Assembly (NCBI GenBank): GCA_963812015.1
Contig: CAWETI010000003.1
Coordinates: forward strand, 1,472,001-1,536,000
DNA: 64,000 nt
Source: an uncultured delta proteobacterium
Lineage (GTDB): Bacteria; Desulfobacterota; Desulfobaccia; Desulfobaccales; 0-14-0-80-60-11
Reading direction: 5' to 3'
Shown here: positions 623 through 22,212 of the stretch, piece by piece
Layout: every line of letters begins with the position of its first letter
How positions within the stretch are numbered: position 1 is the first letter of the stretch
Position numbers and translations under genes: made by a program
The notes under the pieces: model-generated
Database searches by the model: none
The model's input: only the letters and a program-made list of their open reading frames with translations
What the model was told of the DNA's origin: nothing

Positions 623-1213
623 TCACCCATCGAAGGTCACTTTTTGTTGAATCCGCAAAGCCTCCTCGGCCGTTAAGGTACTGAGATACCTCATAGTCAT
701 AAAGGGTGAAGCATGCCCAAGGTGCAGTTGCAGGGCCCGGGGGTTGCCAGTTTGACGCAGGCGCTCGATAGCCCCGGAGTGCCGAAAGAGATGCGGATAA
801 ACCCGTTTGCTGATCCCGGCCCGTTCGGATATTTCCCTAATGATCTGCCAAGCCCGCTTGCGGTTGATCTTGAAGATCCGGTCCTCCAGACCCAATTTTC
901 GGTCAAAAGCGAAGCTCTTGAGGCGATGGGCCAGGCTGTCGGGACAGGCGACCAGGCGGGATTTGCCGCCCTTACCCAGGATATAGAGCACGGCGCCCCC
1001 CTCCTGAGTGCCGATGCGGCGGGGGGTCAGGCTTAAGGCCTCGGTGATGCGCACCCCGGTTTGGAAGAGGGTGAGGATCAGGAGCTCATCCCGGCTCTGG
1101 TTCCGCCCGTCGCAGGCGGCCGCCAGGCGGGCGACCTCCTCCCGGGTCAGGTAGGGGACGATGCTCAGGGCTTGGGGAACCAGAGCCTTGGAGATGAGAG
1201 AGCGACTATCCAT
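623..1213 (-). CDS. Tyrosine recombinase (essentially catalytic domain only)
   Basis: TGVRITE (R), GKGGK (K), HLFRH (HxxR), LGH, MRYL (Y); 196 aa, no N-terminal core-binding domain. Confidence 0.93.
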   Translation of the reverse strand: MDSRSLISKALVPQALSIVPYLTREEVARLAAACDGRNQSRDELLILTLFQTGVRITEALSLTPRRIGTQEGGAVLYILGKGGKSRLVACPDSLAHRLKSFAFDRKLGLEDRIFKINRKRAWQIIREISERAGISKRVYPHLFRHSGAIERLRQTGNPRALQLHLGHASPFMTMRYLSTLTAEEALRIQQKVTFDG

Positions 1214-1218
1214 GGAAA

Positions 1219-1349
1219 ATTGGACAAAATTGATTTTGGTCCAATCTTACTTCCGGTGAAGGGCAGAAGTCAAGGGAAAGCATGGCCTTTGGGAGGGCAG
1301 AGAAGCGGAAAGTTGGACAAAAGTGCTTCTTTTGTCTAATTGTCTAATT
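1219..1349. promoter_or_regulatory. Two palindromic TTGGACAAAA boxes, putative recombinase binding/recombination site
   Basis: ATTGGACAAAAT-tg-ATTTTGGTCCAAT (1219-1245) and TTGGACAAAAG-tgctt-CTTTTGTCTAA (1313-1339), plus extra half-site TTGTCTAA at 1340. Confidence 0.65.
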
Positions 1350-1410
1350 AACGATATGGAATCCATATCAAAATTGATTTGTAGCCCAAAGAAGATAAAA
1401 TAAATAGCAG
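1346..1410 (+). repeat. Recombinase-proximal partial copy of the island repeat (right-hand subsites)
   Basis: AATTaacGATATGGAATccATAT matches 8272-8294 at 18/23 positions; ATAGCAG lies 51 nt from GATATG (50 nt in the 8235 copy). Confidence 0.6.
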
Positions 1411-1437
1411 TACCTGACACTTTTGCTAAAACAAATT

Positions 1438-2523
1438 TTACTGTGAATTTATAAAAGGGTCTGTGATATTCAGAGGATGGAGGAACCGTTCTTTCAAAAT
1501 CCGACTCATCCCCTGGGCCACCATTTTTCGCCCCGCATCCTCCAGATGCATGCCATCGTCCTGATAAATTGGCTCGGTTCTGGGACACAAAATATTTTGA
1601 AAATCAACAAAATAAGGCTTGTTTTTTAGCCTGGAAACCAAGGCATTATTGACGATGGTAAAGTTATGGCGAAAAGCGAAATGCCGACCCACAATGCAGA
1701 AATCTTTTTCTTTCATCCTAACTTCCGATGCGACCTGACCCGTCTCAATCCACCAGGTAGGCTGCCAGAACAGGAGAAACCTTGCACCGCGATTGGCGGC
1801 GGTTTCGTTAACATAATCATAGCGCTTCTCGGCCAAATCCACAAACCTTTGCAGCTCGGGCGAGTCTGTCGCAATTGGCAGCACCCCTTGCTTAAGCTTC
1901 TCATAAAGTTCCATGGTGAAGGAGGCGTAAATAGCCGCATTCAGCGGTTTGAGCAAACCGAAGAAACTGCGCTGGTAGCTCTCAATCAACCCTTGCACCT
2001 TGGAATAGCCAAGATGGCCCCCTTCGGGTGTCCGAGTTTGGGCAAAATAGGTGCAATCGTTAGCGCCATCGTAGAAGATGATCATATCTGGGCGAGAGGA
2101 GTTCTCGACGAACACCTTTTGCAAATATTTCGTCTCCATCAGGGAATTAAAGCTTGGTTCCCCATAATTAGTGAGGAAGGCCGGGGTCAGTGGTTCTTCT
2201 TCATTGAGGATTTTAGCCAGATAGCTGGGAATAGTCTGGTCGTCATAATCGGTGGCCCCCGCCATGGTAGAACCTCCGAACATCCAAAGGCTCTTGACCT
2301 TCCCTTTTTCCGGGGCCGCGGGATTATGATGGGTGGGCCGAGGGTATCCGATGGTTTGGAAGAGGATGTATGGATCATAATGCACCCGCTCTCCATCCCT
2401 TAATTGGCCGTAGATCCAGTAATTGCTGGTGATAACGATCAAAAAGCTGAAAACTTCCACCAGGACCACAGTCATTATCAACAACTTGAAACCAACCGCC
2501 ACCCAATGGACTACTCGTTTCAT
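1438..2523 (-). CDS. SGNH/GDSL hydrolase-family membrane-anchored protein
   Basis: N-terminal TM helix, FGGSTMAG, YDGAND, DGMH motifs. Confidence 0.8.
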   Translation of the reverse strand: MKRVVHWVAVGFKLLIMTVVLVEVFSFLIVITSNYWIYGQLRDGERVHYDPYILFQTIGYPRPTHHNPAAPEKGKVKSLWMFGGSTMAGATDYDDQTIPSYLAKILNEEEPLTPAFLTNYGEPSFNSLMETKYLQKVFVENSSRPDMIIFYDGANDCTYFAQTRTPEGGHLGYSKVQGLIESYQRSFFGLLKPLNAAIYASFTMELYEKLKQGVLPIATDSPELQRFVDLAEKRYDYVNETAANRGARFLLFWQPTWWIETGQVASEVRMKEKDFCIVGRHFAFRHNFTIVNNALVSRLKNKPYFVDFQNILCPRTEPIYQDDGMHLEDAGRKMVAQGMSRILKERFLHPLNITDPFINSQ

Positions 2524-2767
2524 GGATCACTCGTGATTTAGAGATTATCCTCTATTATGTGGTAGGCTGAGTTGCCTTTCTGTTCCGAACGCGTGAATTC
2601 GCGGCAAACCAACAGAGCCCGCATAGCTTCAAAAGTCCTCTGATTGAATTAAGCCTACATTGCGGTTATACCTTGCAACCTTTATAATTAGGCATTTTGG
2701 TCTTGAGTAATCTAATAGTAATGAACCTGTATAAATTTTGCTAATCCTGTCAATAAGGCATATTTAA

Positions 2768-4036
2768 TCAAATAATACCGTATTCCCGCCCCATTTCTGC
2801 AAATATACCCAGAGCCCTGTCCATTTCTTCCTTGGTCAGCGAGTTCATGATGCTCACCCGTAACCTGCATTCTTTGCGTCGAACTGCAGGATACGTGACG
2901 AGATTAGTAAAAACACCTCGGTGACGAAGGTCATTGTGAAGATTTGCAAGCTTGCCTTCGTCCCCGATCATAATCGGTATGATGGCGGATTCCGTGTCGC
3001 CGGTGTCGAATCCAAGCCCTTTCAAGCCCGCCAGCATATATCGAATATTGTCCCATAATCTATCCCGCCCGGCAGCATCTTTCTTCATGAGTTTAAATAC
3101 TTCAATCAGGCCCGCCACGATAGGAGCGGGAGCGCTGGTGGAGAAGAAATAGGACCGTGCATAATAACGAAGATAGCGAATCAATGATGTGGTACCTGCA
3201 CAATAGCCTCCGATTGCGCCCGGTGCTTTGCTCAGGGTGCCAAAAATGATGTCCACCTGGCCCATGCAATTGAACTTCTCCGGAGTGCCTCTTCCCGTTG
3301 GGCCGACAACTCCCAAGGCATGAGCCTCATCGATCATGACTCGTGCATTGTAGCGCTGCGCCAACTCAACAATCTGATCAAGCGGAGCCACATCGCCATT
3401 CATGGAAAAGACACCGCATGTGACAATAAGACGGCCTTTCTGGGATTCGGGTAAATTCTTAAGAGTTTTTTCCAGATGGTCTATATTGCGGTGAAGAAAC
3501 ACCTTGATTTCAGCCCCTGACAACTTACACCCATCAAAAATCGAGGCGTGATTGGCGGCATCGGTCAGGACCACATCACCTGATCCACATAGAGCTGATA
3601 TAATGCCGACATTGCCTGAATACCCGCAGGGAAAGATCATGGCATCTTCGGCTGCATAGAACTCTGCTATGAGTCTTTCCAATTGCCGATGCAGGACGCT
3701 TGTCCCTGCAAGTAGAGGAGAAGCACCCATTCCAAACCCGTATTCGTCACACGCGGCTTTGCAAGCAGCAATTACTCTCGGATGCGTGGTCAACGACAGG
3801 TAGGAATTCGACGCCAACATAATTACTTCATGGTCATGGTTGTCTTTTTCCTTGATTCTTACCCGAGGCCCGGCAGGGGTGAGAATCTGAAGTCCCAGCC
3901 CATCCAGGTAGTTAGGGGTACTCTCCTGTAGGACAGCTTCCAATTCATATACTTTTTGGAAGATATCAGCCGTCCCATTTTTTGAAATAAAGTCCTCGAA
4001 CTGTTTCGGCTGATTCCCACCTTTCACAATGCTCAT
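2768..4036 (-). CDS. PLP-dependent alpha-oxoamine synthase (BioF/Kbl/serine palmitoyltransferase family)
   Basis: SNSYL, NHASIFDG, FSMNGD, DEAHALG, GTLSKA motifs. Confidence 0.9.
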   Translation of the reverse strand: MSIVKGGNQPKQFEDFISKNGTADIFQKVYELEAVLQESTPNYLDGLGLQILTPAGPRVRIKEKDNHDHEVIMLASNSYLSLTTHPRVIAACKAACDEYGFGMGASPLLAGTSVLHRQLERLIAEFYAAEDAMIFPCGYSGNVGIISALCGSGDVVLTDAANHASIFDGCKLSGAEIKVFLHRNIDHLEKTLKNLPESQKGRLIVTCGVFSMNGDVAPLDQIVELAQRYNARVMIDEAHALGVVGPTGRGTPEKFNCMGQVDIIFGTLSKAPGAIGGYCAGTTSLIRYLRYYARSYFFSTSAPAPIVAGLIEVFKLMKKDAAGRDRLWDNIRYMLAGLKGLGFDTGDTESAIIPIMIGDEGKLANLHNDLRHRGVFTNLVTYPAVRRKECRLRVSIMNSLTKEEMDRALGIFAEMGREYGII

Positions 4037-4214
4037 AAGCGTGATCCTTCGTGGTGGTTTGAAGCGGGTTGTTGGGTGGCGAAATACTTCCCCCTCCTAC
4101 CCAATATCATCCTTGTCTAACCAGACAGGCGGCAGCCTGAAGTTGGGAACCACCAAATAAGAGGAACATAACCTCCCGGTGACACCAATATTAAGCCACG
4201 ACCAAGAGCCTCCA

Positions 4215-4817
4215 TCAGTTCCGCTTCAATTCGGACACCTTGGTCCTGAGGCGCCGCACCAGTTCGGCGTAAGAAGACTCATGGATAATCCGGCTGAACT
4301 GGGAGCGGTAGTTGCTCACCAGGCTGACGCCCTCGATCACCACGTCGTAGACCTTCCAAGTCCCGCCCTCCTGGAGGAGGCGGTAGTTCAAGGGAATCCG
4401 GTCATTGGGTTTGACCACCATGGTGCGCACTTCGGCGCTATTGTCGGTGAGAACTTCGCCGGTGTAGTCAACTTTTACATGCTGGGTGTACTTCTCGATT
4501 TTATCGGCGTAGGAGGCCTCCAGAAGTTCTGCAAACAGGCGCACAAATTCCTCCCGCTGACCACCGCTGAGACTGTCCCAGGTGGCTCCAAGGGAACGCT
4601 TAGCCATTTCCGGGTAATCGAAGTGCGGGTCGACCATGTTCTTGAGCATCCAGCGCCTTTCCTGGGCTGGCTGGGCGGGATTTTGAAGAATCTTCAGGGC
4701 CTGTTCAATGACGTGCCTGACCGTATCGGTGGGAGGGCCGGCCCAGGCGACGGAGACGCCTACCACCAGCTGTATGATCAATCCGAACAATATGGTTCTT
4801 AACTGCAAACGCCTCAT
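4215..4817 (-). CDS. MlaC/Ttg2D/HpnM-family lipid-binding periplasmic protein
   Basis: Signal peptide; FDYPEMAKRSLG, WKVYDVVIEGVSLVSNYRSQF; start moved to ATG 4817 after AAGGAGG. Confidence 0.88.
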   Translation of the reverse strand: MRRLQLRTILFGLIIQLVVGVSVAWAGPPTDTVRHVIEQALKILQNPAQPAQERRWMLKNMVDPHFDYPEMAKRSLGATWDSLSGGQREEFVRLFAELLEASYADKIEKYTQHVKVDYTGEVLTDNSAEVRTMVVKPNDRIPLNYRLLQEGGTWKVYDVVIEGVSLVSNYRSQFSRIIHESSYAELVRRLRTKVSELKRN

Positions 4818-5042
4818 GGTGTCCTCCTTATACATTGCGGCCCGGGAATCTGCGCCGAGGGCCAAAATTTTGTCGGCCCTAAGCTCTGTTATTAGTTCTT
4901 AGTCTGTATACCAAATTTTATCCAAGATGCTGACCTGCCCCCAGTAGTTGTACCAAGTTTTAAGTTAGGATGGGGGTCAAGTCAAGCCAAAGATGGTTTG
5001 CCAAAGAGAAAGGGGGAAACTTGGGATCCAAAAGTTTCTAGA

Positions 5043-5159
5043 ACTTGCCAGGAGTTGTACTTATCGGTGGAGCGGGGGAAATTGCAAGATATGGTCTGGA
5101 TATGGGAGGTTTCTGGCCCGGTGACAACTGTTGGATCATAGCAGATAGTGAAAGTTCTA
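5043..5159 (+). repeat. Island repeat copy A
   Basis: ACTTGCCA-N7-TACTTATC...AAATTGCAAGATATG...GGATCATAGCAG; aligns with 8235 with one indel. Confidence 0.8.
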
Positions 5160-5857
5160 AAGCGGGTTTTCTGCTCCTACTTACACCACTTCCTGCTCAC
5201 CTCTCTTCCGGTACGACCCACCAGTCAAACTTAACATATGGATCGGTTTTTGGGGGCAGGTCAAAGAACGCTACAATCGCACCACGCTTTCCGATCAAAC
5301 AAGCACAAGATTTTTTTCCGCTGGTTGAGATCGTAGATCGGGGCAAATTTCAGATCATGGCGTAAGAAATTTTCCAGAGATTGGGTCAAGAGTTCTCCGT
5401 TTTTTTGGATAAAACGCAGTTCCGCCCCGACCCCACAGCCATGACGGCGGGCCTGCTCCAGTGTGGATTTGGTGGGGTCATACTCAGGTTCGGTCTTGCT
5501 CTGGTAATGGCACTGGCTCTGGCATCGAAAGTCGATCCGATGTTGGGGAGTAAGGCCGCTTTGGTCAATGAAGACATAGTAGACCACTTTATCCGGGCAG
5601 TCCTCCTCCAGATACAGGGTGTGCGAAGCAGGGCAAAATCAGGGTGGCCTCGATGCTGAACGGCCGGATAGGGGCTCCTAACCCAATTGCCCAAGGGGGA
5701 TGAGTTTCACTTTTCCGCACCGGCTCGATTCCACCATCAGGCCAGCGTGAGCAAACCGGCCGTCAGTTGCTTGACCTGTCCCTGAAGTTCCTCCGTTGGC
5801 TAATCACCTTCATAAGTGAACGCTTAGCCTTCCCGGTCCGCTTTATCCTCAAGAGTC

Positions 5858-6427
5858 TCACCCGCCGGGAGGCGGGACCACGCAGTAATTAAGGTCAGTA
5901 CCCTGATAGCAGGCCTGATAATAGTTGCTGCCGTCATAGTAGTAGGTCTGACCCCCATATACCTGGGGGGAGGCCCCGGAGGGCAAAGCCTCCAGAATTG
6001 TGCCAATCGCCAAAGCGGCGATAATCGCGGCGGCGAGTCCCCCTCCCCCGCCATACTCCGGACCATAATAGGGGGCCCAGGCCTCGCCATAACCTCCACC
6101 AGGATAGCCGCCACCGTAGGCTCCACGGGATCCTTTAACAGCCGCGCCGCCAGAGGGGCCTCGGACGGCCGTACCTCCCCGGGGTCCTCTCGCCACTGCG
6201 CCGCCCCGGGGGGCTGGCACTGCGCGGGGGGCCGGCGCCGGGCGGAAGCTGCCGCCGCTAAAACCGCCGCCATGAGGGGCGGCGGCGGCATGACCACCGC
6301 CCGCGGGATGCCCGCCTCCGCCGCCTCCCCCCTTTGGCCCAGCCGCCGAGCTCACAAAGGGCAAAGTCAATACTAACGCCACTGCGAAAAGGCTCCAAAT
6401 AGGAGACCTGAGTTTTCTCAGCTTCAT
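5858..6427 (-). CDS. Secreted Gly/Pro-rich protein (DUF6515/DUF3300-like C-terminus)
   Basis: Signal peptide, GPRGG repeats, C-terminal TYYYDGSNYYQ...YCVVPPP; overlaps the stop of the upstream gene. Confidence 0.7.
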   Translation of the reverse strand: MKLRKLRSPIWSLFAVALVLTLPFVSSAAGPKGGGGGGGHPAGGGHAAAAPHGGGFSGGSFRPAPAPRAVPAPRGGAVARGPRGGTAVRGPSGGAAVKGSRGAYGGGYPGGGYGEAWAPYYGPEYGGGGGLAAAIIAALAIGTILEALPSGASPQVYGGQTYYYDGSNYYQACYQGTDLNYCVVPPPGG

Positions 6428-7278
6428 GATTTGCCTCCTTCCTTTTTCATCCCTGGTTCCGGTTTCGGGGCCTGGCTGGGCGCAACCGGGACAAACTTGA
6501 TCTTTTCGGCCCCCGGAGGGGGAGTAAAGGCAAACAGGTTGGCATTAAGCTGGGGGGAGAAATTCCAGTCGCTGATGTACGCGGTCCATTGGGGAGAATC
6601 GGGCAATTTCTTATAGGTGATCACGATCTTTCGGAGGAGGGGTTGTTCCCCGGCATCGATCCACTGCTGGAACTGGACATTTTCCCCATCGAAGGACAGG
6701 TGGTGGCAGAGAACCCCGCGGATCCTGGACTTGCCCACATAAAGGGAGTGTTTGATGTGTTTTTCCATTAATTCCCAAAGATCAGGGCTGGCCAGGTCGC
6801 TCAAGGAAACCCGGAACCCAAATTCCTTATGGGCCTTTTCCAGGGCGCTTTCGAGATCGGGAGGGACCTCCAGGGTGCCGTAGACGTTATGGTCTTTGTC
6901 GTACAGGGTGATGGTCTTGCCGTCGATGTAGAACTGCTTGTCGACCCGGTCGCCCACGGCATTGACCCTGAGCTGGTCGGGCCGCTTCACAAAGAATTCC
7001 AGGCCAGTCTCATACTGAATTTTTTTGCTGCCGTAATACACCTCGTCGACGGCGACCTCGGCTTTGTAAGTAAATTGCTGTTGAGATTTAAGGAAATCGC
7101 ACATCTTTTGGGCAATTTGGAGGGGATCAGGTGCCGGTGCCGGCGCCGGCGCCTTTTCGGCCTGAGGGGCTGCCGGCGGTGGGGCCTGCGGCTTTTGCTG
7201 TTGCTCCTGGGACAGGGCGCTACCCGTCAGTGCCCAAAACGCCAAACAAACCAGTCCTGCCAAGATTCGTTTGCTCAT
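6424..7278 (-). CDS. DUF2092 family periplasmic protein (LolA-like fold)
   Basis: Signal peptide; VKRPDQLRV, CHHLSF, QWIDAGEQPL, FAFTPPPGAEKI. Confidence 0.85.
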   Translation of the reverse strand: MSKRILAGLVCLAFWALTGSALSQEQQQKPQAPPPAAPQAEKAPAPAPAPDPLQIAQKMCDFLKSQQQFTYKAEVAVDEVYYGSKKIQYETGLEFFVKRPDQLRVNAVGDRVDKQFYIDGKTITLYDKDHNVYGTLEVPPDLESALEKAHKEFGFRVSLSDLASPDLWELMEKHIKHSLYVGKSRIRGVLCHHLSFDGENVQFQQWIDAGEQPLLRKIVITYKKLPDSPQWTAYISDWNFSPQLNANLFAFTPPPGAEKIKFVPVAPSQAPKPEPGMKKEGGKS

Positions 7279-7535
7279 TCTGCCTCCTCGTTAATCGGCG
7301 ACCAAGTATTTATAGCCAGGAAAGAGGTTGTAGTTGCCAAGAGCGATACTCCTCGCCAATGGGAGAATTAAATTGCCGGGCCACCTCCTCCTTATTCCTG
7401 GGACGAGGTGGTACGTGAGCTAAAATTAGGTTGCAAAAATTTAAAGTCAAGTATTCAGGCTAGATCTGGCGTGACCTCGATGGAAAAATCCCGGGCCCGG
7501 GATCACGCTGGCACTCAGCCTTCCCCCCCAGGCCC

Positions 7536-8141
7536 TTAGGCCAAAAGCCTTTTCCGCATCAGGCAAACCCAGGCTTTAGGCGGGTTGGGGCGCTTGGATT
7601 CAAAATAGCTGGAAACGAGCGACAGGATTTCGAAGTGGGACTCCACAGAGTCAACAATGTCCCTGGCGGTCCGCTGGGGTGGACCCGGTCCCTGGCACTG
7701 TTCATCGGCGCTGCCAACCAGACTCAGCCACAGGCCATCTTTGATTAAATGGGCAGCCACATTTTCAGCAAAACTTTTCCGTTCTTCATCCGAGTTTAAG
7801 GTATGAAAACAGCCTCTATCAAAGGCAAAGCCAAATGGCGCCCCGGCAATTTTGCTGGTGAGGAAGTCAATCACCATAAACGTACATTGGACCTTAGCTT
7901 TTGCAGCTTTCTCTCTAGCCTTCTCTATGGCAATCTCTGAATTATCAATACCTATCACATAAAAGTCTTTTTGGGAAAGCCATATGGAATCATCGCCGGT
8001 TCCGCACCCGATATCCAATGCTTTACAGGGTGCCAGGGCCATGGCGCTCACGGTCTGAATAAGATTGAAATCGGGTCTGCCGATATCCCAGGGAGTATCG
8101 CCCGATTCATACCTTTTCTGAAAATTCTCTGCTGCCGTCAT
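7536..8141 (-). CDS. Class I SAM-dependent methyltransferase (TPMT/TehB-like)
   Basis: TPWDIGRP, ALDIGCGTG, FDRGCFH. Confidence 0.88.
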   Translation of the reverse strand: MTAAENFQKRYESGDTPWDIGRPDFNLIQTVSAMALAPCKALDIGCGTGDDSIWLSQKDFYVIGIDNSEIAIEKAREKAAKAKVQCTFMVIDFLTSKIAGAPFGFAFDRGCFHTLNSDEERKSFAENVAAHLIKDGLWLSLVGSADEQCQGPGPPQRTARDIVDSVESHFEILSLVSSYFESKRPNPPKAWVCLMRKRLLA

Positions 8142-8234
8142 GTTGTTTTTACCTCATACAGATTTCAGAACATGTTAAGAAGCTATCTGATAGAGGAGCC
8201 TTGGGTGAAAAGCGGCATTCAAAAATAGCAAGGT

Positions 8235-8351
8235 ACTTGCCAGGATCACCAATTATCGCTTAAGTGGGAAAAATTCCAGATATGGAATGAATATGGAAAG
8301 CTTATGGCTCAGTGATAAGTTTCGGATCATAGCAGCTAGTTGGAATTTCTA
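8235..8351 (+). repeat. Island repeat copy B
   Basis: ACTTGCCA-N7-CAATTATC...AAATTCCAGATATG...GGATCATAGCAG. Confidence 0.8.
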
Positions 8352-8410
8352 TTCTGAAAAAGATTCCCATAAGGCAGTACTAATTACTAAGAACTGAAAG
8401 GTAAAGGCCT

Positions 8411-14786: not shown

Positions 14787-15433
14787 CGATTGGTCCTCCT
14801 ACTAAGCAGCAACTATTAAATTGTGATGATACAATCGATATTATAAATTTAGAATAATATGTTCTTCGGATTCGAGTTATATCTGAATGTTTTCGACTGT
14901 ACTAAGATAACTGAATTTAGCTTGTCATTCCAATTTATGTTATTTAATGATTAATTTACTTAAGCTATTTCCATATTGGTAATTTTTGTTATAAAGATAT
15001 CTCTGGATTACAATTATTCGCCTGATAAACTATAAAAATCATAATATATGGCTTTCTTTTTACAATCAGTGATAACCCTAAATTTAAAGTTCGAAAATCC
15101 TGGTTTATAGTGTGAATAGTTAAGGATAGGATGATTAAGTAATCTTCTGGGGTAGCTTCCTGCGTTATTGTCTGATTTTTTAGAAGCAATACCTGAAAAG
15201 CCCTATTAGTGGGGATATATATAAATCATCGATTCTCGAGCGTGGGATGATGATCTTGGGGCTTATTTTAAAAAAATCTTTAGTTTAAAAATCACTAAGA
15301 AAGGTGTCCAGCACCGAATGAAAGAATCGTTAACTGCCATTTATTGGCAATATGATCTCAATTTGTGGGGTGGCTTTTTTAGTTCAGGAAAATATCAGGT
15401 GCCTACAATAAAAGAAGGGGAGAATATCGATAT

Positions 15434-16696
15434 CTATTCAGGGATTTCATTACCAGGAAAGCTGTGTGCATGTTCTGCGTAATTTAATTTAGTAACATTA
15501 TTTACATTATCTATTTGAACAGAGTCCAACACTTCCCGTATTTTTACTACAAGCGTTATGAGAGAGAAGGGCTTCTGGATAAATGCCGCAGTCTTATCTA
15601 AAGCTAAATGGTGGACAACAATGTCTTCCATATGGCCGGACATGTAAATCACCTCCATTTGGGGATTCAAAGGTAATAAACATTCGGCCAAGTGTCCCCC
15701 CCCCATCTGGGGCATCACTACATCCGTCAACATCAAATGGATCAGTCCCTGGTGTTGCTTACAAATCCGCAGGGCCTCTTCGCCGCAGCGGGCACTCAGC
15801 ACCGTATATCCATACTCTACAAGGGCATCACTTATTAGCTCTCGCAGTTTATCCTCATCTTCCACCACCAGAACTGTTTCTGAGCCTCGTAGCTGGTCAG
15901 ATTCAGCAATTTGTAGCGACCTACAAGCCTTTTTAGCCCTGGTTTTCACCGTGGGGAAGAATATTTTAAAGGTAGTTCCTTGTCCTGGTTCGCTATATAC
16001 TTCAATAAAGCCACCATTCTGTTTGACGATCTCATGGGTGGCGGAGAGGCCAATACCGGGCCCCTTCCCAGTTTCTTCGGTGCTAAAAAATGGTTCAAAA
16101 ATATGGGCACGGGCCTTTTTATCCATACCCCTGCCGGTATCGCTCACTATCAGCATAGCGTAGGCACCGGATGAGACGTCAAGGTGCCTGGATAGATAGG
16201 ATTTGTTTAGAGAAACATTAGCAGTTTCAATACTTAGTCGACCTCCTTGAGGCATGGCATTCCGTGCGTTGACCGCTAAATTCATCAGGACCTGTTCCAA
16301 TTGGCCGGGATCTATTGTTACGATTATCGCGTCCGGACCAAGATTCAGGACCAGTTCGATATCTTCCCCAATGAGACGGTGCAGCATTTTATCTATTTCA
16401 ATGACAATACTATTCAAATCGACTTCCCGAGGTTGGGTTCTCTGCCGGTGGCTTAAAGTTAGCAATTGACGGGTCAAGAAAACGGCTTGTTCCGCAGCTT
16501 CTTTAATCCCTTTGACATGAGGGTGGAATTTATCATCTGGACTCATTTCCTTCATCATGATAGCCAGATGCAATATGATAATCCCCAGCATATTACTGAA
16601 GTCGTGGGCCAACCCTCCTGCTAACCTCCCCACCGCTTCCATTTTCTGGGCCTCGAGGAATTGGTCCTGAAGTTGCTCTCGTTCATTGTTGTCCAT
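15434..16696 (-). CDS. Hybrid histidine kinase without a sensor domain (HisKA-HATPase-REC)
   Basis: QKMEAVGRLAGGLAHDFSN within the first 35 aa; receiver TDVVMP. Confidence 0.85.
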   Translation of the reverse strand: MDNNEREQLQDQFLEAQKMEAVGRLAGGLAHDFSNMLGIIILHLAIMMKEMSPDDKFHPHVKGIKEAAEQAVFLTRQLLTLSHRQRTQPREVDLNSIVIEIDKMLHRLIGEDIELVLNLGPDAIIVTIDPGQLEQVLMNLAVNARNAMPQGGRLSIETANVSLNKSYLSRHLDVSSGAYAMLIVSDTGRGMDKKARAHIFEPFFSTEETGKGPGIGLSATHEIVKQNGGFIEVYSEPGQGTTFKIFFPTVKTRAKKACRSLQIAESDQLRGSETVLVVEDEDKLRELISDALVEYGYTVLSARCGEEALRICKQHQGLIHLMLTDVVMPQMGGGHLAECLLPLNPQMEVIYMSGHMEDIVVHHLALDKTAAFIQKPFSLITLVVKIREVLDSVQIDNVNNVTKLNYAEHAHSFPGNEIPE

Positions 16697-16801
16697 AAGT
16701 TATCCCAAAGGGGAACTCGGTTCGGTGCGCTGGACTCAATTTCAAAGTCTAAACTGTAAGAAACCCTCTACTAACATGCAAGCCTTCCTTGAGAAGTTGC
16801 T

Positions 16802-17119
16802 CTAATCTTCCGGAGCGACCCAGGAAATATTTGTTTTATTGATGATAAATACTTTGCTATCCTGCCATTCTGCAGTAGCGTCGAACACCACTATAAAGGG
16901 GTTTCGACCAAATGTAAATAGATCGCTCACTCTTTGATAAAAAATTCCCATCTCATTATTATGCTTATCTATCATCTCAATTTCTTGGGTAGATTCGCAG
17001 AGTAAATTAATTTTACCCCTTACAATGGCCCCATCCATTAGTTTTATGGTCACATGTCTGTGCTCAATTTGCTTATAAAACATATTATGAACATTATTTT
17101 GTCCCCGAACGTTGATCAT
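16802..17119 (-). CDS. Small hypothetical protein (DUF6812-like)
   Basis: RGKINL...RVSDLF...FIVVFDA...IINKTNISWVAP; GGAGG RBS. Confidence 0.65.
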   Translation of the reverse strand: MINVRGQNNVHNMFYKQIEHRHVTIKLMDGAIVRGKINLLCESTQEIEMIDKHNNEMGIFYQRVSDLFTFGRNPFIVVFDATAEWQDSKVFIINKTNISWVAPED

Positions 17120-17494
17120 AATATCGCCTCCTTACGATATATGTTAAATTGAACATTCTTGTTTATTCTTAATAAAGGTTAATTGGTGTAGATAAATTTT
17201 GTTGATAAACTTCTTTGATAGAATTTATTCATTCAATTAATGGACCAACCCGGTTGACTTGGGTAATTCATTTAGTTCCATAATTTTTAACCTTTGATAC
17301 GGATTATAATGGTGCCCCGTCAAAAGCGCCATAGGGAAATCCACTGATTTTTGGGGAAGAAAAATACTGGTTAATAAAGGGGTGGATAGATGATTATTTT
17401 TTTGAATTCGGCTTAATTGGATTTACCGGTCATGGTTTTTCCCCAGCAATCTGTAATCGAAAACTACTTTATGCCGCAAAAATAGGCACGTTTA

Positions 17495-17592
17495 ACTTGC
17501 CAAACCCGGCAATTATCCCCAAACCCGGAAAAGTTGAAGATATGATCCGCATAGTGAAGGAGGTTTGCCTGATCACGTTTTGACGACCATAG
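17495..17592 (+). repeat. Island repeat copy C
   Basis: ACTTGCCA-N7-CAATTATC, GATATG at +44, CGACCATAG at +89 (same offsets as copy B). Confidence 0.75.
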
Positions 17593-17754
17593 ATCATCAA
17601 CCGCTTGGGTCCCTGCCCATTGGCATCACTGTCTCAGGTCACTGGCCGGTGCCGGTAGCGGTGCTATTATTTCTTTAATCGTTTTTTGCGGAGAACCACC
17701 ATCTCCTTGAGGTTTCGGTTGGCAAATTTTTAAACGAAAGCATTTATCCGTGCT

Positions 17755-18879
17755 TTAGCCTTCCTGCCGTATGACTGCAACGCGAATCTGCTGCACCGCG
17801 ATCAACGAAACCACGCTCATCGCAGCCCCGGCAACAAAGGGAATGCGGTAGTCCACCATCCACAACAACCCGCCGATGGCTGGAAGAAACACTGCGGCAA
17901 TGTGGTTGATGGTGAAGCCCATTGCCATGCTGGGAGCAATGTCCCGGGGGTCCGCCACCTTCTGGAAGAAGGTCTGGATGGCAATGGCAAAATTGAAAAA
18001 AACATGATCCAAGATGAACAGAATCGACAGGACAAGTTTGGATTGTACCAGGGCGTAGGCCAGGAAGATAAAGAATAGGCTGAAATATTCCAATGACAGC
18101 ACTTTCCGTTCGCCAAAGCGCAGGATGCTTTTCCCGATTATTGGGCTCAGGAAATAATTGATCAGGTCATTAATCACAAACAGGATGGTTATGTGCTGAA
18201 GGGTGAAATGGCACCTTTTCACCAGCAGGAATACTGCAAAGGCCATAAAAATCTGGCGGCGTGCGCCGCCCATAAAGGTGAGGAAATAAAAGAGCCAATA
18301 CTTCTTGCGAAAAATCATCTTTTTGTGCTGGGGGATAATATCGCGGTGGGTTGGATCGTGCAGCAGGCCCCAGATGCTGGCTGCGACGATGGCACCTCCG
18401 ATAATCAAATAGATTTGGGTGTAATTCAATAGAGCCGCCAGGCAGTAAATCAAAATCCCAATAACCACGCTGGAAGCCGAGGCCAGACTGCGCATTTTGC
18501 CAAACACCCAGGGTGATTGGGTGGCGTCAAAATATTGCAGGGTCAACGACTGATTCGTGGTCTCGTAATAGTGAAAGCCGAAACTCATGATGAGCGTGGT
18601 GAGAATGAGGCCCAGGTAGGAAGGGAACCAGCCGGTTACCGCCAGCCCCAGCCCCAGGAAGAGAATAGACAGGGCGGACAGGCGATGTTCCTTGATCACC
18701 AGCATGATAAAAACCGCCAGCAGGGCCAGGAAACCTGGAATTTCCCGTATGGACTGGATCATGCCGATGTGGCTGCCATCCAAATGCGCCACATCTACGG
18801 CAAAATTATTGAAGAGGGTAAGCCAGGCTTTCAGGCCAACCGTCGAGCTGATGGTAAGCACCATCAGGAAACGAAACAT
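17755..18879 (-). CDS. MFS transporter
   Basis: About 12 TM segments, SIREIPGFLAL, GFHYYET; start uncertain (ORF open to 19086). Confidence 0.88.
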   Translation of the reverse strand: MFRFLMVLTISSTVGLKAWLTLFNNFAVDVAHLDGSHIGMIQSIREIPGFLALLAVFIMLVIKEHRLSALSILFLGLGLAVTGWFPSYLGLILTTLIMSFGFHYYETTNQSLTLQYFDATQSPWVFGKMRSLASASSVVIGILIYCLAALLNYTQIYLIIGGAIVAASIWGLLHDPTHRDIIPQHKKMIFRKKYWLFYFLTFMGGARRQIFMAFAVFLLVKRCHFTLQHITILFVINDLINYFLSPIIGKSILRFGERKVLSLEYFSLFFIFLAYALVQSKLVLSILFILDHVFFNFAIAIQTFFQKVADPRDIAPSMAMGFTINHIAAVFLPAIGGLLWMVDYRIPFVAGAAMSVVSLIAVQQIRVAVIRQEG

Positions 18880-19204
18880 GGCATTTTGGTTAGTTTGTGG
18901 CACTGAGGATTGTTCCGAAATTATGCGGCCGTCCTGGCCCCATAGTCCAAAAATAGTTTTGGGGACCTCCTTGGTTCGATGCCCCCCGCAAAAGGTATCA
19001 TCCTTTGAGCTGCCTCTCTCATGGACGGCATGGTACCACCAATTTCGCTGAAAAGTAATTCCTTGATGAATGTTGGCATACCACACCCTTAGAACCCGGA
19101 CAGCTCGGTGTCATGGAGCTTAAAGACCCCAAGCACTGGCTGCGGCGACACGTGCATACCACTATTTTTGGGAATAGGGATTAACGATAAGGAAATAGCA
19201 AGTT

Positions 19205-19270
19205 ACTTGCCACGATCGACAATTATCGTCGGACCGGAAAAAATTCCAGATATGATCTGATTATCTGAAT
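19205..19270 (+). repeat. Island repeat copy D (left two subsites)
   Basis: ACTTGCCA-N7-CAATTATC...AAATTCCAGATATG, GATATG at +44. Confidence 0.78.
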
Positions 19271-19324
19271 CCCTTCCTTTGTCCTGAAGTTGGGTAATTT
19301 CTTCTTTTCATTTAAACTAAATCC

Positions 19325-20368
19325 ATGTCCCAGCCCCCCAAGACTGATCTGGAATCTTTCCATTTCCGGAATCTGCATCATAAGGTCTTAATCGGAACGG
19401 CCAGTGATCGTTATGCCGGTTGGATTGGACAAATTTATTCCCAGGACCGCTATGCTGGACGAATAACCAAACGCACCAAAATCGTGGCCTTAAAATCTTT
19501 CACGGAAGAAGTGCTCCCAGTCGACAGCGTGGAGGAGTACTTCGAACATTTCCCGGTCTTGGAAATTGATTTCATTTTTTACCGGCCGCTTTTAGACCAA
19601 AACGGCCAACCCAACCAGAACTACCAGGTATTGAAGACCTACGCCAGGCACCTAAAAAAGGGTGACCGGATAATTCTCAAAGTTCCACAAATGATCATGG
19701 CCCAAAAAATTCGGAAAGGTGACTATTATGTGGCAAACCCAGCCTATCTCAACCCCAAAATGTTTACGGAACAATTCTATGAACCAGCCATCAATCTCCT
19801 GGGCGCCAATCTCACTGGCTTCATTTTTGAACAGGAATATCAACGTAAGGAGGATCGGTTGCCTGTGGTCAAGATGGCCTATGGTCTGAATATATTTTTC
19901 AGCCAAGTTCCCACAGATTCCAGGTATCATCTGGAATTAAGAACAGACCTATATCTCCGGGACCAGGTTTTTGAGGTATTGGCCAAATATGGAGTTGGGC
20001 AAGTCTTATCTCACTGGACTTGGTTGCCGCCCTTGAGAAAACAGCTGGCCAAAGCTGACGGCAGATTTTTCAATGCCGGGAATGAATGTGTTATCCGGCT
20101 AATGACACCCTTGGGAATGAGGTATGAAGACGCTTATGCAAAAGCCCATCCTTTTGATAGGCTGGTGGAAGGTATGCTGCAGCCGGAGATGGTTTTTGAG
20201 ACTGTGGAAATGGTCAAAAGTGCCATTGAGAAAGGGATGATGGTCAATCTCATTATCAATAATCGGGCGGGGGGCAATGCACCTATGATTGCGGAGATTA
20301 TTTCAGAGAAACTTTTCCCCAAACCCACGCCAAAATCTAAGGGCCAAATGAGTCTGTGGGATTCCTGA
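19325..20368 (+). CDS. DUF72 (YecE-like) protein
   Basis: IGTAS..YAGWIGQIY, LEIDFIFYR, HLELR, INNRAGGNAP. Confidence 0.85.
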   Translation: MSQPPKTDLESFHFRNLHHKVLIGTASDRYAGWIGQIYSQDRYAGRITKRTKIVALKSFTEEVLPVDSVEEYFEHFPVLEIDFIFYRPLLDQNGQPNQNYQVLKTYARHLKKGDRIILKVPQMIMAQKIRKGDYYVANPAYLNPKMFTEQFYEPAINLLGANLTGFIFEQEYQRKEDRLPVVKMAYGLNIFFSQVPTDSRYHLELRTDLYLRDQVFEVLAKYGVGQVLSHWTWLPPLRKQLAKADGRFFNAGNECVIRLMTPLGMRYEDAYAKAHPFDRLVEGMLQPEMVFETVEMVKSAIEKGMMVNLIINNRAGGNAPMIAEIISEKLFPKPTPKSKGQMSLWDS

Positions 20369-20592
20369 TTAAAAATATCGGTACAAGAATCAAAGTGATT
20401 TCCCATTCCTGGTATAAATTATTAAACTAAAACAGCTGAACGATGCAGGAGGATGGAATAATTATCAGGGGATATCATGAGGTTATATTTATAGGGTGGC
20501 TTGGTATGATTAGTGCATAATAATATTGCAGACATGAACTGTTAAGGAAACCCCCAATCCCCCCTTAAAAGTTCACATACCATTTTCTCCTT

Positions 20593-20630
20593 AGCTGGCC
20601 GGGACTCCCCCTCTCGGCCAGTTTGTTTTT
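20593..20630 (+). terminator. Rho-independent terminator
   Basis: AGCTGGCCGGG...CTCGGCCAGTT hairpin followed by TGTTTTT. Confidence 0.7.
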
Positions 20631-20776
20631 CTACTGAGTCATTCCAGTCTAAAGATTTTGACCTTTCAGCAGCCGCCATTGACACCCCAATCGCACCTAT
20701 GCAAGATTGCCGTTCTTCCATTGCAAACCAGGGCGAAATGTAGTATGGGTGTGGACCACATGACGATACAAAGGAG

Positions 20777-21076
20777 ATGATTCTTATGGCCAGTGAAAAT
20801 CTTAAATTAACTGCCCAAATTGTCATGTCCCACGCATCAATGAGAAAGCTAACGCCACAGGAATTGGTTACGGTGATTAAAAGGTTATATGCTACCTTAG
20901 CTTCATTAGAAGCTGAAGATGTCGTTCCAGAACCAAAACCCAAAGTGATCCGCCAACGCAAGCCTCGAAAAGTTAAAATTAAAGGAACGCCGGAAGCCAA
21001 AGCGGTTGAGAATGAGGAAGGATTGACTGTTGGAGATCCGGATTATATGGAGTTTATGGAAAGCCGAGAGGGGTAA
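20777..21076 (+). CDS. MucR/Ros N-terminal-domain protein lacking the zinc finger
   Basis: LKLTAQIVMSHAS...LTPQELVTVIKRLYATL parallels the N-terminus of the downstream MucR. Confidence 0.75.
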   Translation: MILMASENLKLTAQIVMSHASMRKLTPQELVTVIKRLYATLASLEAEDVVPEPKPKVIRQRKPRKVKIKGTPEAKAVENEEGLTVGDPDYMEFMESREG

Positions 21077-21147
21077 CCGAACCAAGTTGGAGAACAACGC
21101 ATTCTGGCGCAATTCCCTTACAATCAAACCCAAAGGAGATAATACCC

Positions 21148-21588
21148 ATGCCCAGCGAAGTTCTAAAAATGACCACAGAGATTGTCGTTTCCCATGCCTC
21201 GTTAACCGAACTTACCACCGAGCAATTGGTTAGCGAGATTAAAGATGTCTACAATGTCCTTTCTGTTTTGGAAGGCGGGCAAATTTTGGAGGAACCGCTT
21301 TCTGGAAAAGCTGGAGAAACTGGTGGTGTGAAAAAGCCATCTATTCCTTTGAAAGACATCGTTAAGGCCAAGTATGTGGTTTGTCTTGAATGCGGGAAAA
21401 AACTGAAAACTTTAAAGACCCACCTGCAGAAAGCTCATGGGTTGATGCCGAAAGAGTATTATAAGCGGTTTGACCTGGATCCCAAGAAGTTCCCTCTGGT
21501 GTGTAAAGAATATTCAGCGGCTCGGAGCAAGATGGCGAAAGACCGGGGGTTGGGTGCGAAGGGAGGTAGGCGTAAGGCGACTACTTAA
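21148..21588 (+). CDS. mucR: MucR/Ros family transcriptional regulator
   Basis: VVCLECGKKLKTLKTHLQKAHGL zinc finger, PLVCKEYSAARSKMAK...GLG. Confidence 0.92.
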   Translation: MPSEVLKMTTEIVVSHASLTELTTEQLVSEIKDVYNVLSVLEGGQILEEPLSGKAGETGGVKKPSIPLKDIVKAKYVVCLECGKKLKTLKTHLQKAHGLMPKEYYKRFDLDPKKFPLVCKEYSAARSKMAKDRGLGAKGGRRKATT

Positions 21589-21676
21589 GTAAGTTGAAGC
21601 CCTCACAAAGACCTCCCAAACCATTGAAGAGAAATTGACCAGGGTTAAGAACCCAACAAAAGCCGAGGAGAAAGCT

Positions 21677-21766
21677 ATGGGAGACAAAGGTAAGAAGGAC
21701 AAGGCCAAGAAGGGCAAGAAAGACAAACAGAAGGTAGATAAAAAAGACAAGGATAGCAAGAAGTAG
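21677..21766 (+). CDS. 29-aa Lys/Asp-rich peptide
   Basis: MGDKGKKDKAKKGKKDKQKVDKKDKDSKK; GAGGAG RBS 6 nt upstream. Confidence 0.6.
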   Translation: MGDKGKKDKAKKGKKDKQKVDKKDKDSKK

Positions 21767-21811
21767 CAGGTCAACCCAATTGAGGGGCGGCCCCGCCGTA
21801 GGAGAGCCACC

Positions 21812-21973
21812 ATGTTAATTTTGACCTTGAAGGAGGACGAAAAAATTCTCATTGGGGACAAGATAACTGTCAAGGTGGTGGAGATCCGGGGAAAACAAAT
21901 CCGCCTTGGGATCGAGGCGCCGGCTGGCCTTTTGGTTCTGCGGGAAAATCTGGCGGGAAAAGCAAAGGCATAA
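21812..21973 (+). CDS. csrA: Carbon storage regulator CsrA/RsmA homolog (53 aa)
   Basis: MLILTLKEDEKILIGDKITVKVVEIRGKQIRLGIEAPAGLLVLRE; AGGAG RBS; absent from ORF track. Confidence 0.9.
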   Translation: MLILTLKEDEKILIGDKITVKVVEIRGKQIRLGIEAPAGLLVLRENLAGKAKA

Positions 21974-22155
21974 AGGAGCACAGGACGGTGGGTCAAGGCG
22001 AAACTCCTGGTGCCCCACCAGGCCGCTGGCCCTTGTCCCTCCCACGCAACAGCCCATCCCCAGCCCGACCCTCCTATCTGATTACCCAATCTGGTATAGG
22101 TTATCGCTTGCGGGATAACTTACCTTAATAACCCTTTAATGCCCCATTGAAGATA

Positions 22156-22212
22156 GCTTGCCACTATCCGCTCTTCTGGGAATCTTTGCATATGATTCGT
22201 ATATGGAAATCT
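22156..22212 (+). repeat. Island repeat, degenerate copy E
   Basis: GCTTGCCA...CGCT-N4-TGGGAA...ATATG-N6-ATATGGAAA aligns to copy B with internal deletions. Confidence 0.5.

What the first reader, a model, noticed from the sequence alone, without database searches (positions are those of the whole stretch)
623..22212. Candidate integron-like cassette array: minimal tyrosine recombinase plus same-orientation multi-subsite repeats between cargo modules
Seen: a non-coding element recurs in direct orientation at 5043, 8235, 17495 and 19205, with a degenerate copy at 22156 and weak traces at 7332 and 4086. Its layout is fixed: ACTTGCCA-N7-(C)AATTATC, then a GATAT-N7-ATAT-like dyad starting at +44/45, then (G/C)GA(T/C)CATAG at +89/90 in three copies. 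Copies A and B align over ~115 bp with one indel, and the mismatches are not 3-periodic. Each copy sits at a junction between unrelated blocks: [SGNH, SPT-like, MlaC] | [Gly-rich, DUF2092, MTase] | [9-kb signalling block] | [MFS alone] | [DUF72, MucR x2, CsrA; opposite strand]. The right-hand subsites recur at 1346-1410, just upstream of the recombinase. I found no copy right of the att site at 22558. Known: integron attC sites are RYYYAAC...GTTRRRY ssDNA hairpins and IntI is ~320-340 aa; neither fits. A ~110-120-bp three-subsite layout resembles res-type dsDNA sites. Inference: the recombinase stacks multi-gene modules at its adjacent site, leaving hybrid repeats between them.
Basis: partly seen in the sequence, partly recalled or inferred. 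Interest (0 to 1): 0.9.

Follow-up and report, generated by a model that had tools for sequence, protein, structure and literature searches.

The report
Recombination-site repeats bounding imported gene modules
The repeats are real copies of a genome-wide recombination site whose own small recombinase gene sits inside the site elsewhere, and they mark seams between imported gene blocks, but the neighbouring 196-residue recombinase is not their enzyme.

Summary
Observation confirmed. Four co-oriented ~130-bp copies lie at 5043, 8235, 17495 and 19205, with a degenerate fifth at 22156. The traces at 7332, 4086 and 1346-1410 are not significant.

The array is not a local platform. The family has 66 copies in 27 mostly co-oriented clusters in this genome. 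It occurs in all 17 other genomes of the genus searched.

Its invariant heptamer TGGCAAG (CTTGCCA on the + strand) is where homology between duplicated or horizontally shared blocks starts or stops. This holds here at 17495, upstream of the MFS gene, and at 22156.

A 1.06-kb form carries its own Xer-like recombinase nested between the two halves of the site. That gene is broken in this genome and intact at 80-92% identity in relatives, and it needs a slip on an A8 run to be read in full.

The window's 196-aa recombinase is only 32% identical to it. It was found in 0 of 17 genus genomes, and no copy lies beside it.

Best reading: seams left by serial site-specific integration of modules at TGGCAAG, integron-like in geometry but not an integron. 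Mobility is inferred, not shown.

This scan reported the same system before on other DNA (e1-7817862, e1-7687253, e1-2378122). Four literature searches found no description.

The parts
5026..5158 (-). Site copy 1, complete short form. CTTGCCA core at 5044-5050 on the + strand; read on the - strand it runs R-part, dyad, L-part, TGGCAAG.
   Evidence: E 1e-29. Its nearest relative lies in another cluster at 79%.
8218..8350 (-). Site copy 2, complete short form; core at 8236-8242.
   Evidence: E 7e-34. Nearest relative is C3:882256 at 79%. A different variant of the site follows the orthologous kinase gene in G017; none does in G007.
17477..17609 (-). Site copy 3, complete short form; core at 17496-17502.
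   Evidence: A 702-bp block (16785-17486) that is 91% identical to C3:417241-417940 starts about 10 nt past the core, and the partner locus has no site.
19188..19317 (-). Site copy 4, lacking the GGATCATAG box; core at 19206-19212, upstream of the MFS gene.
   Evidence: In G008, G014 and G003 the same MFS gene (93-97% identical) also has a family copy upstream. The G008-G014 homology begins right after TGGCAA.
22147..22215 (-). Degenerate site copy 5; CTTGCCA at 22157-22163.
   Evidence: E 0.0028. A contig of run X6 matches 21950-22163 with 2 differences in 214 nt, then continues after CTTGCCA with a complete, different L-part (tables 5, 5c, 8).
623..1213 (-). 196-aa catalytic-domain-only tyrosine recombinase. 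It is not the family's enzyme.
   Evidence: Pfam PF00589, E 8e-22. 32% identical to the nested recombinase. Paralogue at C2:683106 is 82% identical. Found in 7 of 41 relatives and 0 of 17 in the genus.
5814..7458 (-). Module with the Gly-rich ORF and DUF2092, duplicated at 99% on C2:1101124-1102769 between two family copies.
   Evidence: The ends of the duplication lie 130 and 243 bp from the C2 sites and 656 and 760 bp from the window sites, so they are not at the cores.
17744..18981 (-). MFS transporter gene body, 93-97% identical to copies in three other species of the genus.
   Evidence: Two further genus copies of this gene (G007, G017) are 79% identical.

Best explanation
The five repeats belong to a dispersed family of double-stranded recombination sites for a small Xer-like tyrosine recombinase.

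Read on the - strand, a site has four parts:
- accessory boxes: an R-part with CTATGATCC and ACTTATC;
- a CCATAT-N7-CATATC dyad;
- an L-part with GCAATTTTT and GATAAGTG;
- the invariant heptamer TGGCAAG nine bases further on, followed by a weakly conserved nTAT..GC.AT.

In the complete 1.06-kb form the recombinase gene lies between the R-part and the L-part. It reads away from the core, and its start codon is about 90-110 bp from TGGCAAG.

I infer that strand exchange happens in or at TGGCAAG. Two co-oriented sites would release the DNA between them as a circle carrying one site, and such a circle could enter any other site. Repeated rounds would stack unrelated modules separated by co-oriented sites. 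Each site would stay linked to the block on its accessory-box side and unlinked from the block beyond its core.

On this reading the window's 5-23 kb low-GC stretch is such a stack. The cognate recombinase in this genome is broken, so the stack is probably a fossil here.

Shown: the family, its orientation, its distribution, the nested gene and the breakpoints. Inferred: binding, the crossover point, circles and activity.
For: Family size and order:
- 66 copies at E below 1e-3.
- They form 27 clusters, and 36 of 39 neighbouring pairs are co-oriented.
- Each base of TGGCAAG is conserved in 64-66 of 66 copies.

Nested recombinase:
- C2:302461-303520 has L-part, recombinase gene and R-part.
- The same layout is seen in nine relatives' loci; seven units including G000's were aligned.
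- 6 read-throughs without stops at 80-92% identity, in G014, G010, G033, G015, G007 and G024.
- Distribution is patchy: 13 of 41 genomes.

Copy number: the pattern GATAAK-N9-TGGCAAG occurs 37 times here and 1-38 times in each of the 17 other genus genomes. The reversed control gives 0 everywhere.

Breakpoints at the core:
- An 827-bp unit runs core to core in two different arrays at 93% identity.
- A 3.8-kb block ends exactly at TGGCAAG in both of its copies.
- Blocks start at the core at C3:1008037 and at window 17495.
- G008-G014 homology upstream of the MFS gene starts at TGGCAA, with different sites on the other side.
- The X6 contig diverges right after CTTGCCA at 22163.
- Of 13 matches in 10 genomes to the sequence leading into core C2:1100165, 8 stop within 6 nt of it and none runs past.

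Integron-like geometry:
- In G014, G015 and G037 the recombinase-linked core is followed by one unrelated gene and then another site.
- Each window copy's closest relative lies in another cluster at 72-82%, so the array did not arise by local duplication.
Against: No excision or integration event is shown.
- No filled-versus-empty pair and no circle junction was found. Read laying gave no joint between the window's sites, but it laid assembled contigs only, which drop rare variants.
- Not all block ends are at cores. The 99% DUF2092 duplication ends 130-760 bp from sites.
- The MFS block shared with other species ends inside the gene's 5' region in this window, and 60 nt past the stop codon in G008 versus G014.
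- One break lies at the dyad and one at the outer edge of the R-part. A single-crossover model does not predict these.
- The 827-bp core-to-core unit was not found in 40 relatives.
- 48 of 66 copies show only the L-part and core.
- The cognate gene here carries a TAA stop.
- The arms flanking TGGCAAG are not an obvious inverted repeat with a 6-8 bp spacer (my reading).
Confidence: 0.55

Rival explanations
1. MITE-like transposition. The 115-230-bp units are gene-less derivatives of a 1.06-kb recombinase-bearing element. They insert on their own between genes, and the gene blocks are not moved by them. This is the reading of earlier notes e1-7817862 and e1-7687253.
For: - The unit comes in discrete sizes: 12 short forms, 6 long forms with a fixed 217-231 nt span, and a full form with the gene.
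- Both edges can be sharp: the R-part edge at C3:1012174 and the core.
- Copy number ranges from 1 to 38 within one genus.
- Genomes with many copies can lack the gene, for example G008 with 16 copies.
- Different variants sit at equivalent places: after the kinase gene in G000 and G017, and before the MFS gene in G008 and G014.
Against: - No target duplication was seen at the three window copies I inspected by eye (sequences).
- No empty site was found.
- 36 of 39 neighbouring pairs are co-oriented.
- Units that run core to core, or that include the site and stop at the core, fit exchange between cores better than insertion of a two-ended unit.
Confidence: 0.25
2. Shared regulatory region. 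The repeat is the promoter and operator of a large regulon, for example a sigma-54 promoter (TGGCA ... GC) with upstream activator and bending sites.
For: - TGGCAAG followed by GC at the sigma-54 spacing occurs in 22 of 66 copies; the two strict window cases are 8235 and 19205.
- All copies are intergenic.
- In a crude ORF census, 30 of 42 copies with a following ORF of 150 aa or more face a co-oriented ORF.
Against: - 44 of 66 copies lack the -12 GC, which is nearly invariant in sigma-54 promoters (established knowledge).
- 12 of 42 copies face a convergent gene. By my reading of the sequences, four of them run straight into what looks like its terminator.
- A promoter does not explain homology that breaks at single-base resolution at the heptamer.
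- Nor does it explain a recombinase gene nested in the motif, or copy numbers of 3 versus 37 in complete genomes of one genus.
Confidence: 0.07
3. The 196-aa recombinase at 623-1213 captures modules at a site next to its own gene.
For: - The gene has a full catalytic domain by Pfam, and the catalytic residues appear to be present by my reading of the translation.
- It lies at the left edge of the low-GC stretch.
- A GATAT-N7-ATATC dyad lies 130 bp upstream of it (D17).
Against: - The dyad match is at chance level, E 4.8-23, and lies outside the module shared with the paralogue.
- No site lies within 3.8 kb of the gene.
- The paralogue has no significant copy within 5 kb.
- The gene was found in 0 of 17 genus genomes that all have the sites.
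Confidence: 0.05
4. General homologous recombination between dispersed repeats produced the mosaics, with no dedicated enzyme.
For: There are many co-oriented copies at 70-80% identity. One break lies inside the motif at the dyad.
Against: The longest stretch shared by all copies is 7 bp. Breaks pile up at that heptamer instead of spreading over the 100 bp.
Confidence: 0.05

Closest known systems
Integrons (IntI, attI, attC cassette arrays)
   Same: Co-oriented arrays of short sites separate unrelated, often single-gene units. Each site stays linked to one neighbouring block, with the break at a conserved 7-bp core. In three relatives the recombinase gene reads away from its site, which is followed by one foreign gene and another site.
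   Different: All three small recombinases score 52-77 bits against the integron-integrase model, whose cut-off is 265. The sites do not fold as hairpins: z from -1.75 to +0.03 on 8 strands. The core is TGGCAAG, not GTTRRRY. The recombinase gene lies inside the site. There are 27 scattered clusters, not one platform.
TnpI and the internal resolution site of Tn4430
   Same: A simple tyrosine recombinase acts on a roughly 116-bp site made of a core at one end plus accessory binding motifs on one side, which favour exchange between directly repeated sites (PMC2847244, passages read). From recall, the tnpI gene adjoins its site and TnpI has 284 residues. Here the site is 115-130 bp with one-sided boxes and the gene about 90-110 bp from the core.
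   Different: No Tn3-type transposase shares the 1.06-kb unit, which holds one gene. The sites are dispersed in arrays between cargo, not one per transposon. There is no sequence likeness to named families above their cut-offs.
Insertion sequences with MITE and cargo-carrying derivatives
   Same: An autonomous form and shortened gene-less forms share the same ends. Copy number varies widely between species.
   Different: The enzyme is a tyrosine recombinase. No target duplication or empty site was found. Copies are co-oriented in arrays. Several blocks run core to core.
Tandem accretion of integrative elements and their gene-less remnants (CIMEs), and Xer-dependent modules (IMEX, pdif modules)
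   Same: Serial site-specific integration at a resident site leaves co-oriented hybrid sites between modules, and redundant integrase genes decay. These comparators are named from recall, not from a call.
   Different: Those systems use a single chromosomal att or dif site, or alternating XerC/D sites. Here a 7-bp core is used at 27 places. The recombinases score below the XerC/XerD cut-offs.

Membership tests
Integron | IntI-type integrase (score at or above the integron-integrase model's cut-off) | tested here: not met
   TIGR02249 gives 63.4 bits (196-aa protein), 51.8 bits (nested recombinase of G014) and 77.5 bits (206-aa protein); the cut-off is 265.
Integron | attC sites that fold as imperfect single-strand hairpins with RYYYAAC/GTTRRRY cores | tested here: not met
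   DNA folds of both strands of the 4 copies give z from -1.75 to +0.03 and no shared hairpin. The core is TGGCAAG.
Integron | Co-oriented array of cassettes, each linked to its own site | tested here: met
   36 of 39 neighbouring pairs are co-oriented. Blocks that include a site stop at its core.
Integron | Integrase gene next to the primary site at the head of the array | tested here: not met
   In the window no site lies within 3.8 kb of the 196-aa gene. The nested recombinase has this geometry in G014, G015 and G037, but arrays also occur far from any recombinase gene.
MITE / insertion sequence | Autonomous partner sharing the ends | tested here: met
   C2:302461-303520 and its orthologues.
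MITE / insertion sequence | Target-site duplication and filled/empty site pairs | tested here: inconclusive
   None was seen in self-comparison of 76 loci, in 17 genus genomes for the window, or in contigs of 4 runs. Close strains were not available.
Sigma-54 promoter | GG at -24 and GC at -12 with fixed spacing | tested here: not met
   GC at the -12 position in 22 of 66 copies.
XerC/XerD-dif | Equivalog-level score to XerC or XerD | tested here: not met
   58-111 bits against cut-offs of 330-335. A dif-like 11-6-11 site was not searched for.
Tn4430-type TnpI/IRS | Resolution site inside a Tn3-family transposon with a TnpA transposase | tested here: not met
   The 1.06-kb unit holds only the recombinase gene.

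The most novel reading that the evidence does not exclude
A second, independently evolved gene-cassette system. Its double-stranded sites of about 115-130 bp exchange at a 7-bp TGGCAAG core. They are served by a small Xer-like recombinase whose gene is nested inside the site and read in full only after a slip on an A8 run. The system stacks single genes and multi-gene modules at many chromosomal places across an order of bacteria. The window would be one of its fossil arrays.
Probability: 0.35. Interest if true: 0.8.

Novelty: new variant of a known kind. Interest (0 to 1): 0.62.

Why it matters
If these sites do exchange DNA, they are a way of building accessory-gene islands that integron finders cannot see. 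There is no IntI and no attC hairpin, yet the cassette geometry is the same. The system is widespread in one genus and present in neighbouring families.

It would explain why a quarter of this window is a low-GC mosaic. It would also explain why one transporter gene is 93-97% identical across species while two other genus copies of that gene are 79% identical.

The nested, recoded recombinase gives a simple handle for an experimental test.

Tried and rejected
- Rfam at gathering thresholds: 0 matches in the window. ARAGORN: 0 tRNA or tmRNA genes.
- Sigma-54 and sigma-70 or sigma-28 readings of the motif. Only sigma-54 could be counted, and it fails in 44 of 66 copies. The others I judged by eye and dropped.
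- attC-like hairpins: none.
- My own hexamer gene finder missed known genes in the low-GC stretch. I replaced it with a crude longest-ORF census.
- Sequencing runs: no RNA holder listed.
- Read laying on 4 runs, contigs only: no joint between the window's own sites. The joints 5112>8306/8314, 4980>22153 and 22163>5090 are other copies of the repeats in other loci or organisms, with short sides of 22-50 nt.
- Empty sites for the window copies: none. The flanking genes lie on different contigs in every relative.
- The 827-bp core-to-core unit was not found in 40 relatives.
- The idea that the long form is an internal-deletion remnant of the gene-bearing form: blastn matches only the R-part, not the roughly 100-nt insert. 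Dropped.
- Link between site orientation and replication: 29 of 37 concordant with GC-skew sign on C3 but 14 of 29 on C2. Not used as evidence.
- Literature: four searches (listings only) turned up no description. I read passages of PMC8138268 and PMC2847244. Subscription journals are not covered.
Full report
**Observation**

The pattern ACTTGCCA-N8-AMTTATC occurs four times in the window, at 5043, 8235, 17495 and 19205, all on the + strand. Shuffles give 0.12 on average, and none of 100 reaches four. The repeat finder finds the same copies and the one-base offset between the two halves of the 5043/8235 alignment.

A profile built from the four copies scores them at E 1e-29 to 7e-34 over about 130 bp. 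A profile built from 45 copies elsewhere in the genome still scores them at E 1e-14 to 1e-19. The copy at 22156 is degenerate but detectable (E 0.0028). The trace at 7332 reaches E 0.14 with one profile only. Nothing is found at 4086. The subsites at 1346-1410 are at chance level, E 4.8-23.

They comprise SGNH, an aminotransferase and MlaC; a Gly-rich ORF, DUF2092 and a methyltransferase; a PAS kinase, an HD-GYP regulator and a hybrid kinase; DUF6812; MFS; and DUF72 and MucR. The first 23 kb are 40-57% G+C against 58% for the genome.

**A genome-wide family, not a local array**

nhmmer finds 66 full copies at E below 1e-3, all on contigs C2 and C3. They form 27 clusters, and 36 of 39 neighbouring pairs have the same orientation.

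Read on the window's - strand, the consensus is R-part (CTATGATCC, ACTTATC), a CCATAT-N7-CATATC dyad, GCAATTTTT, GATAAGTG, nine bases, then TGGCAAG and a weaker nTAT..GC.AT. Each base of TGGCAAG is conserved in 64-66 of 66 copies.

Twelve copies are complete short forms, and four of these are the window's. Six are long forms with the R-part a fixed 217-231 nt from the core. Forty-eight show only the L-part and core. Each window copy's nearest relative lies in another cluster at 72-82%, so the array did not arise by local duplication.

The pattern GATAAK-N9-TGGCAAG occurs 37 times here and 1-38 times in each of the 17 other genomes of the genus. It also occurs in 12 of the 23 genomes searched outside the genus. 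The reversed control gives zero everywhere.

**The family has its own recombinase**

Earlier notes of this scan said that a full form carries a Xer-like recombinase, and I tested this. Of 24 PF00589 matches in the genome, only two lie directly against a site: C2:302937-303353 and a fragment at C2:788880-789065.

C2:302461-303520 reads, on the + strand, CTTGCCA, TTATC, a dyad, a ribosome-binding site and ATG, a recombinase gene, a terminator hairpin, a dyad, GTGATAAGT and GGATCATAG. The gene carries a TAA stop.

Read through with X at the stop, it finds six matches without stops at 80-92% identity in G014, G010, G033, G015, G007 and G024, and fragments elsewhere. In all, 13 of 41 genomes have a match. 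Each of nine relatives' loci shows a family match on at least one flank, in the same order and orientation. Aligning seven units, G000's included, similarity starts at CTTGCCA. At the far end it stops either after the dyad or after GGATCATAGCAG.

In five of the seven aligned copies the ATG-started frame of 21 codons meets the 262-codon main frame on an A8 run. The main frame lies one base ahead of the ATG-started frame. G029 has A7 and is in frame, and G024 has A5TA2. The joined product restores a typical N-terminal core-binding helix. That last point is my reading of the sequence.

**The 196-aa recombinase is not that enzyme**

It is 32% identical to the nested recombinase over 149 residues and 27% identical to a third small recombinase of 206 aa. 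All three score below every NCBIfam cut-off: 103-116 bits against XerA (cut-off 220) and 52-77 bits against the integron integrase (cut-off 265).

Its 82% paralogue at C2:683106 has no significant site within 5 kb. The two copies share 698 bp, which end at window 1339, just short of the dyad. The gene was found in 7 of 41 relatives and in none of the 17 other genus genomes, all of which have the sites.

**The sites are seams**

No relative holds the region in synteny; the genes hit scattered contigs. Some blocks have close partners:
- 5814-7458 is 99% identical to C2:1101124-1102769.
- 16785-17486 is 91% identical to C3:417241-417940.
- The MFS gene is 97, 96 and 93% identical in G008, G014 and G003, while two further genus copies of it (G007, G017) are 79% identical.

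I compared 3-kb flanks of all 66 cores with the genome. Block ends pile up at the core: 3 starts in the 10 nt before the last G and 5 ends in the 10 nt after it, out of 122 and 114 ends spread over 6 kb. Both members of a pair are counted in these figures.

The distinct events within the genome are these:
- An 827-bp unit runs from core to core in two different arrays at 93% identity, C2:1100161-1100987 and C3:448611-449418.
- A 3.8-kb block ends exactly at TGGCAAG in both of its copies.
- A block starts at C3:1008037; its partner has no site but keeps AGTTATCCGCTAT.
- The window's 17495 copy has a block starting about 10 nt past the core, and the partner has no site.
- A 262-bp unit ends 3 nt past the core.

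Three further observations come from other genomes and samples:
- G008 and G014 share the MFS gene and its leader from TGGCAA onward, with different sites on the other side.
- A contig of run X6 matches 21950-22163 with 2 differences in 214 nt, then carries a different, complete L-part right after CTTGCCA.
- Of 13 matches in 10 genomes to the sequence leading into core C2:1100165, 8 stop within 6 nt of it and none runs past.

In every case where a block includes a site, the site lies at the block's end and the break is at the core. Blocks beyond a core never bring the site with them.

In G014, G015 and G037 the recombinase-linked core is followed by one gene and then another site. The three genes are unrelated: a 286-aa ORF, a 258-aa ORF on the other strand and a 246-aa ORF.

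**Results against a simple cassette model**

- The 99% DUF2092 duplication ends 130-760 bp from sites.
- In this window the MFS block ends inside the gene's 5' region. In G008 versus G014 it ends 60 nt past the stop codon, with no site following in G008.
- One break lies at the dyad (C3:1004957 versus C2:1634841) and one at the outer R-part edge (C3:1012174 versus C2:791848).
- The 827-bp unit was not found in 40 relatives.
- No empty site, target duplication or circle junction was found.

**Rivals**

The heptamer and a GC 7-8 bases on match the sigma-54 spacing, strictly so at 8235 and 19205. But only 22 of 66 copies have that GC. Also, 12 of 42 copies with a following ORF of 150 aa or more face a convergent gene.

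The sites do not fold as hairpins. A MITE-like reading remains possible and is what two earlier notes chose. Co-orientation and the core-to-core geometry make me prefer exchange at cores.

**Comparison with known systems**

The geometry is integron-like, but the two molecular hallmarks of integrons were tested and not met. The site layout, with a core at one end, one-sided accessory boxes and an adjoining gene for a simple recombinase, is closest to TnpI and the 116-bp resolution site of Tn4430 (PMC2847244, passages). The recombinase is a 'simple' two-domain type in the sense of PMC8138268 (passages).

Four full-text searches gave no description of this system (listings only).

**Verdict**

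The reading is right about what the repeats are for and wrong about which enzyme serves them and how local the array is. Activity remains to be shown.

Noticed in passing
L007:1498-2458 (G014); also C2:302571-303406 of this genome: The nested recombinase is split between a 21-codon ATG-started frame and a 262-codon main frame that overlap on an A8 run; the main frame lies one base ahead. 5 of 7 aligned copies have A8, G029 has A7 (in frame) and G024 has A5TA2. This looks like programmed slippage, as in transposase genes.
   Followed up: partly
window 644-1339 and C2:683000-683700: The 196-aa recombinase sits in a 698-bp module present twice at 80% DNA identity. A near-palindrome, ATTGGACCAAAATCAATTTTGTCCAAT, ends just before its ATG, and TTTTGTCCAA recurs upstream. 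It may be its own operator or site. The gene is patchy: 7 of 41 relatives, with 4 matches in G031.
   Followed up: partly
window 4925-5000: A 64-70-nt element between the 5043 site and MlaC has 20 copies in the genome. Several are the ends of a 1.27-kb repeat with 100%-identical copies (C2:441449, C2:616784, C2:1179647, C3:1017909), so this is probably a lone end of an insertion sequence.
   Followed up: partly
window 19012-19056 and 22836-22880: A 45-nt inverted repeat at 82%. One arm lies in the roughly 200-nt leader of the MFS gene and the other behind the Fe-S gene. Weaker copies lie at C2:826202 and C2:786039. Rfam has no match. The MFS leader here differs from the one in G008 and G014.
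   Followed up: partly
C3:996792-1000613 and C3:453858-457666: A 3.8-kb block is present twice in opposite orientation at 94-96% identity. It holds a 206-aa catalytic-domain-only recombinase and a 510-aa ORF with no NCBIfam match, and it ends exactly at a TGGCAAG core. It may be a second recombinase type using the same core.
   Followed up: partly
contig C3 around 1.42 Mb (about 50 kb before the window): Cumulative GC skew peaks at about 1.42 Mb. Sites are mostly + before that point and all - after it (29 of 37 concordant with skew sign on C3), but there is no such relation on C2 (14 of 29).
   Followed up: partly
window 8340-8357 and 5148-5165 (outer R-part edge): The sequence at the outer R-part edge (TAGCTGCTATGA) resembles the sequence just past the core in the best copies (ATAGCCGCTAT). 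This would fit a unit that closes on itself, but I did not test it.
   Followed up: no
six long-form copies, e.g. C3:1004733-1004970: Long forms carry a conserved insert of about 100 nt at the exact place where the recombinase gene sits in the full form. blastn finds no likeness between the insert and the gene-bearing form.
   Followed up: partly
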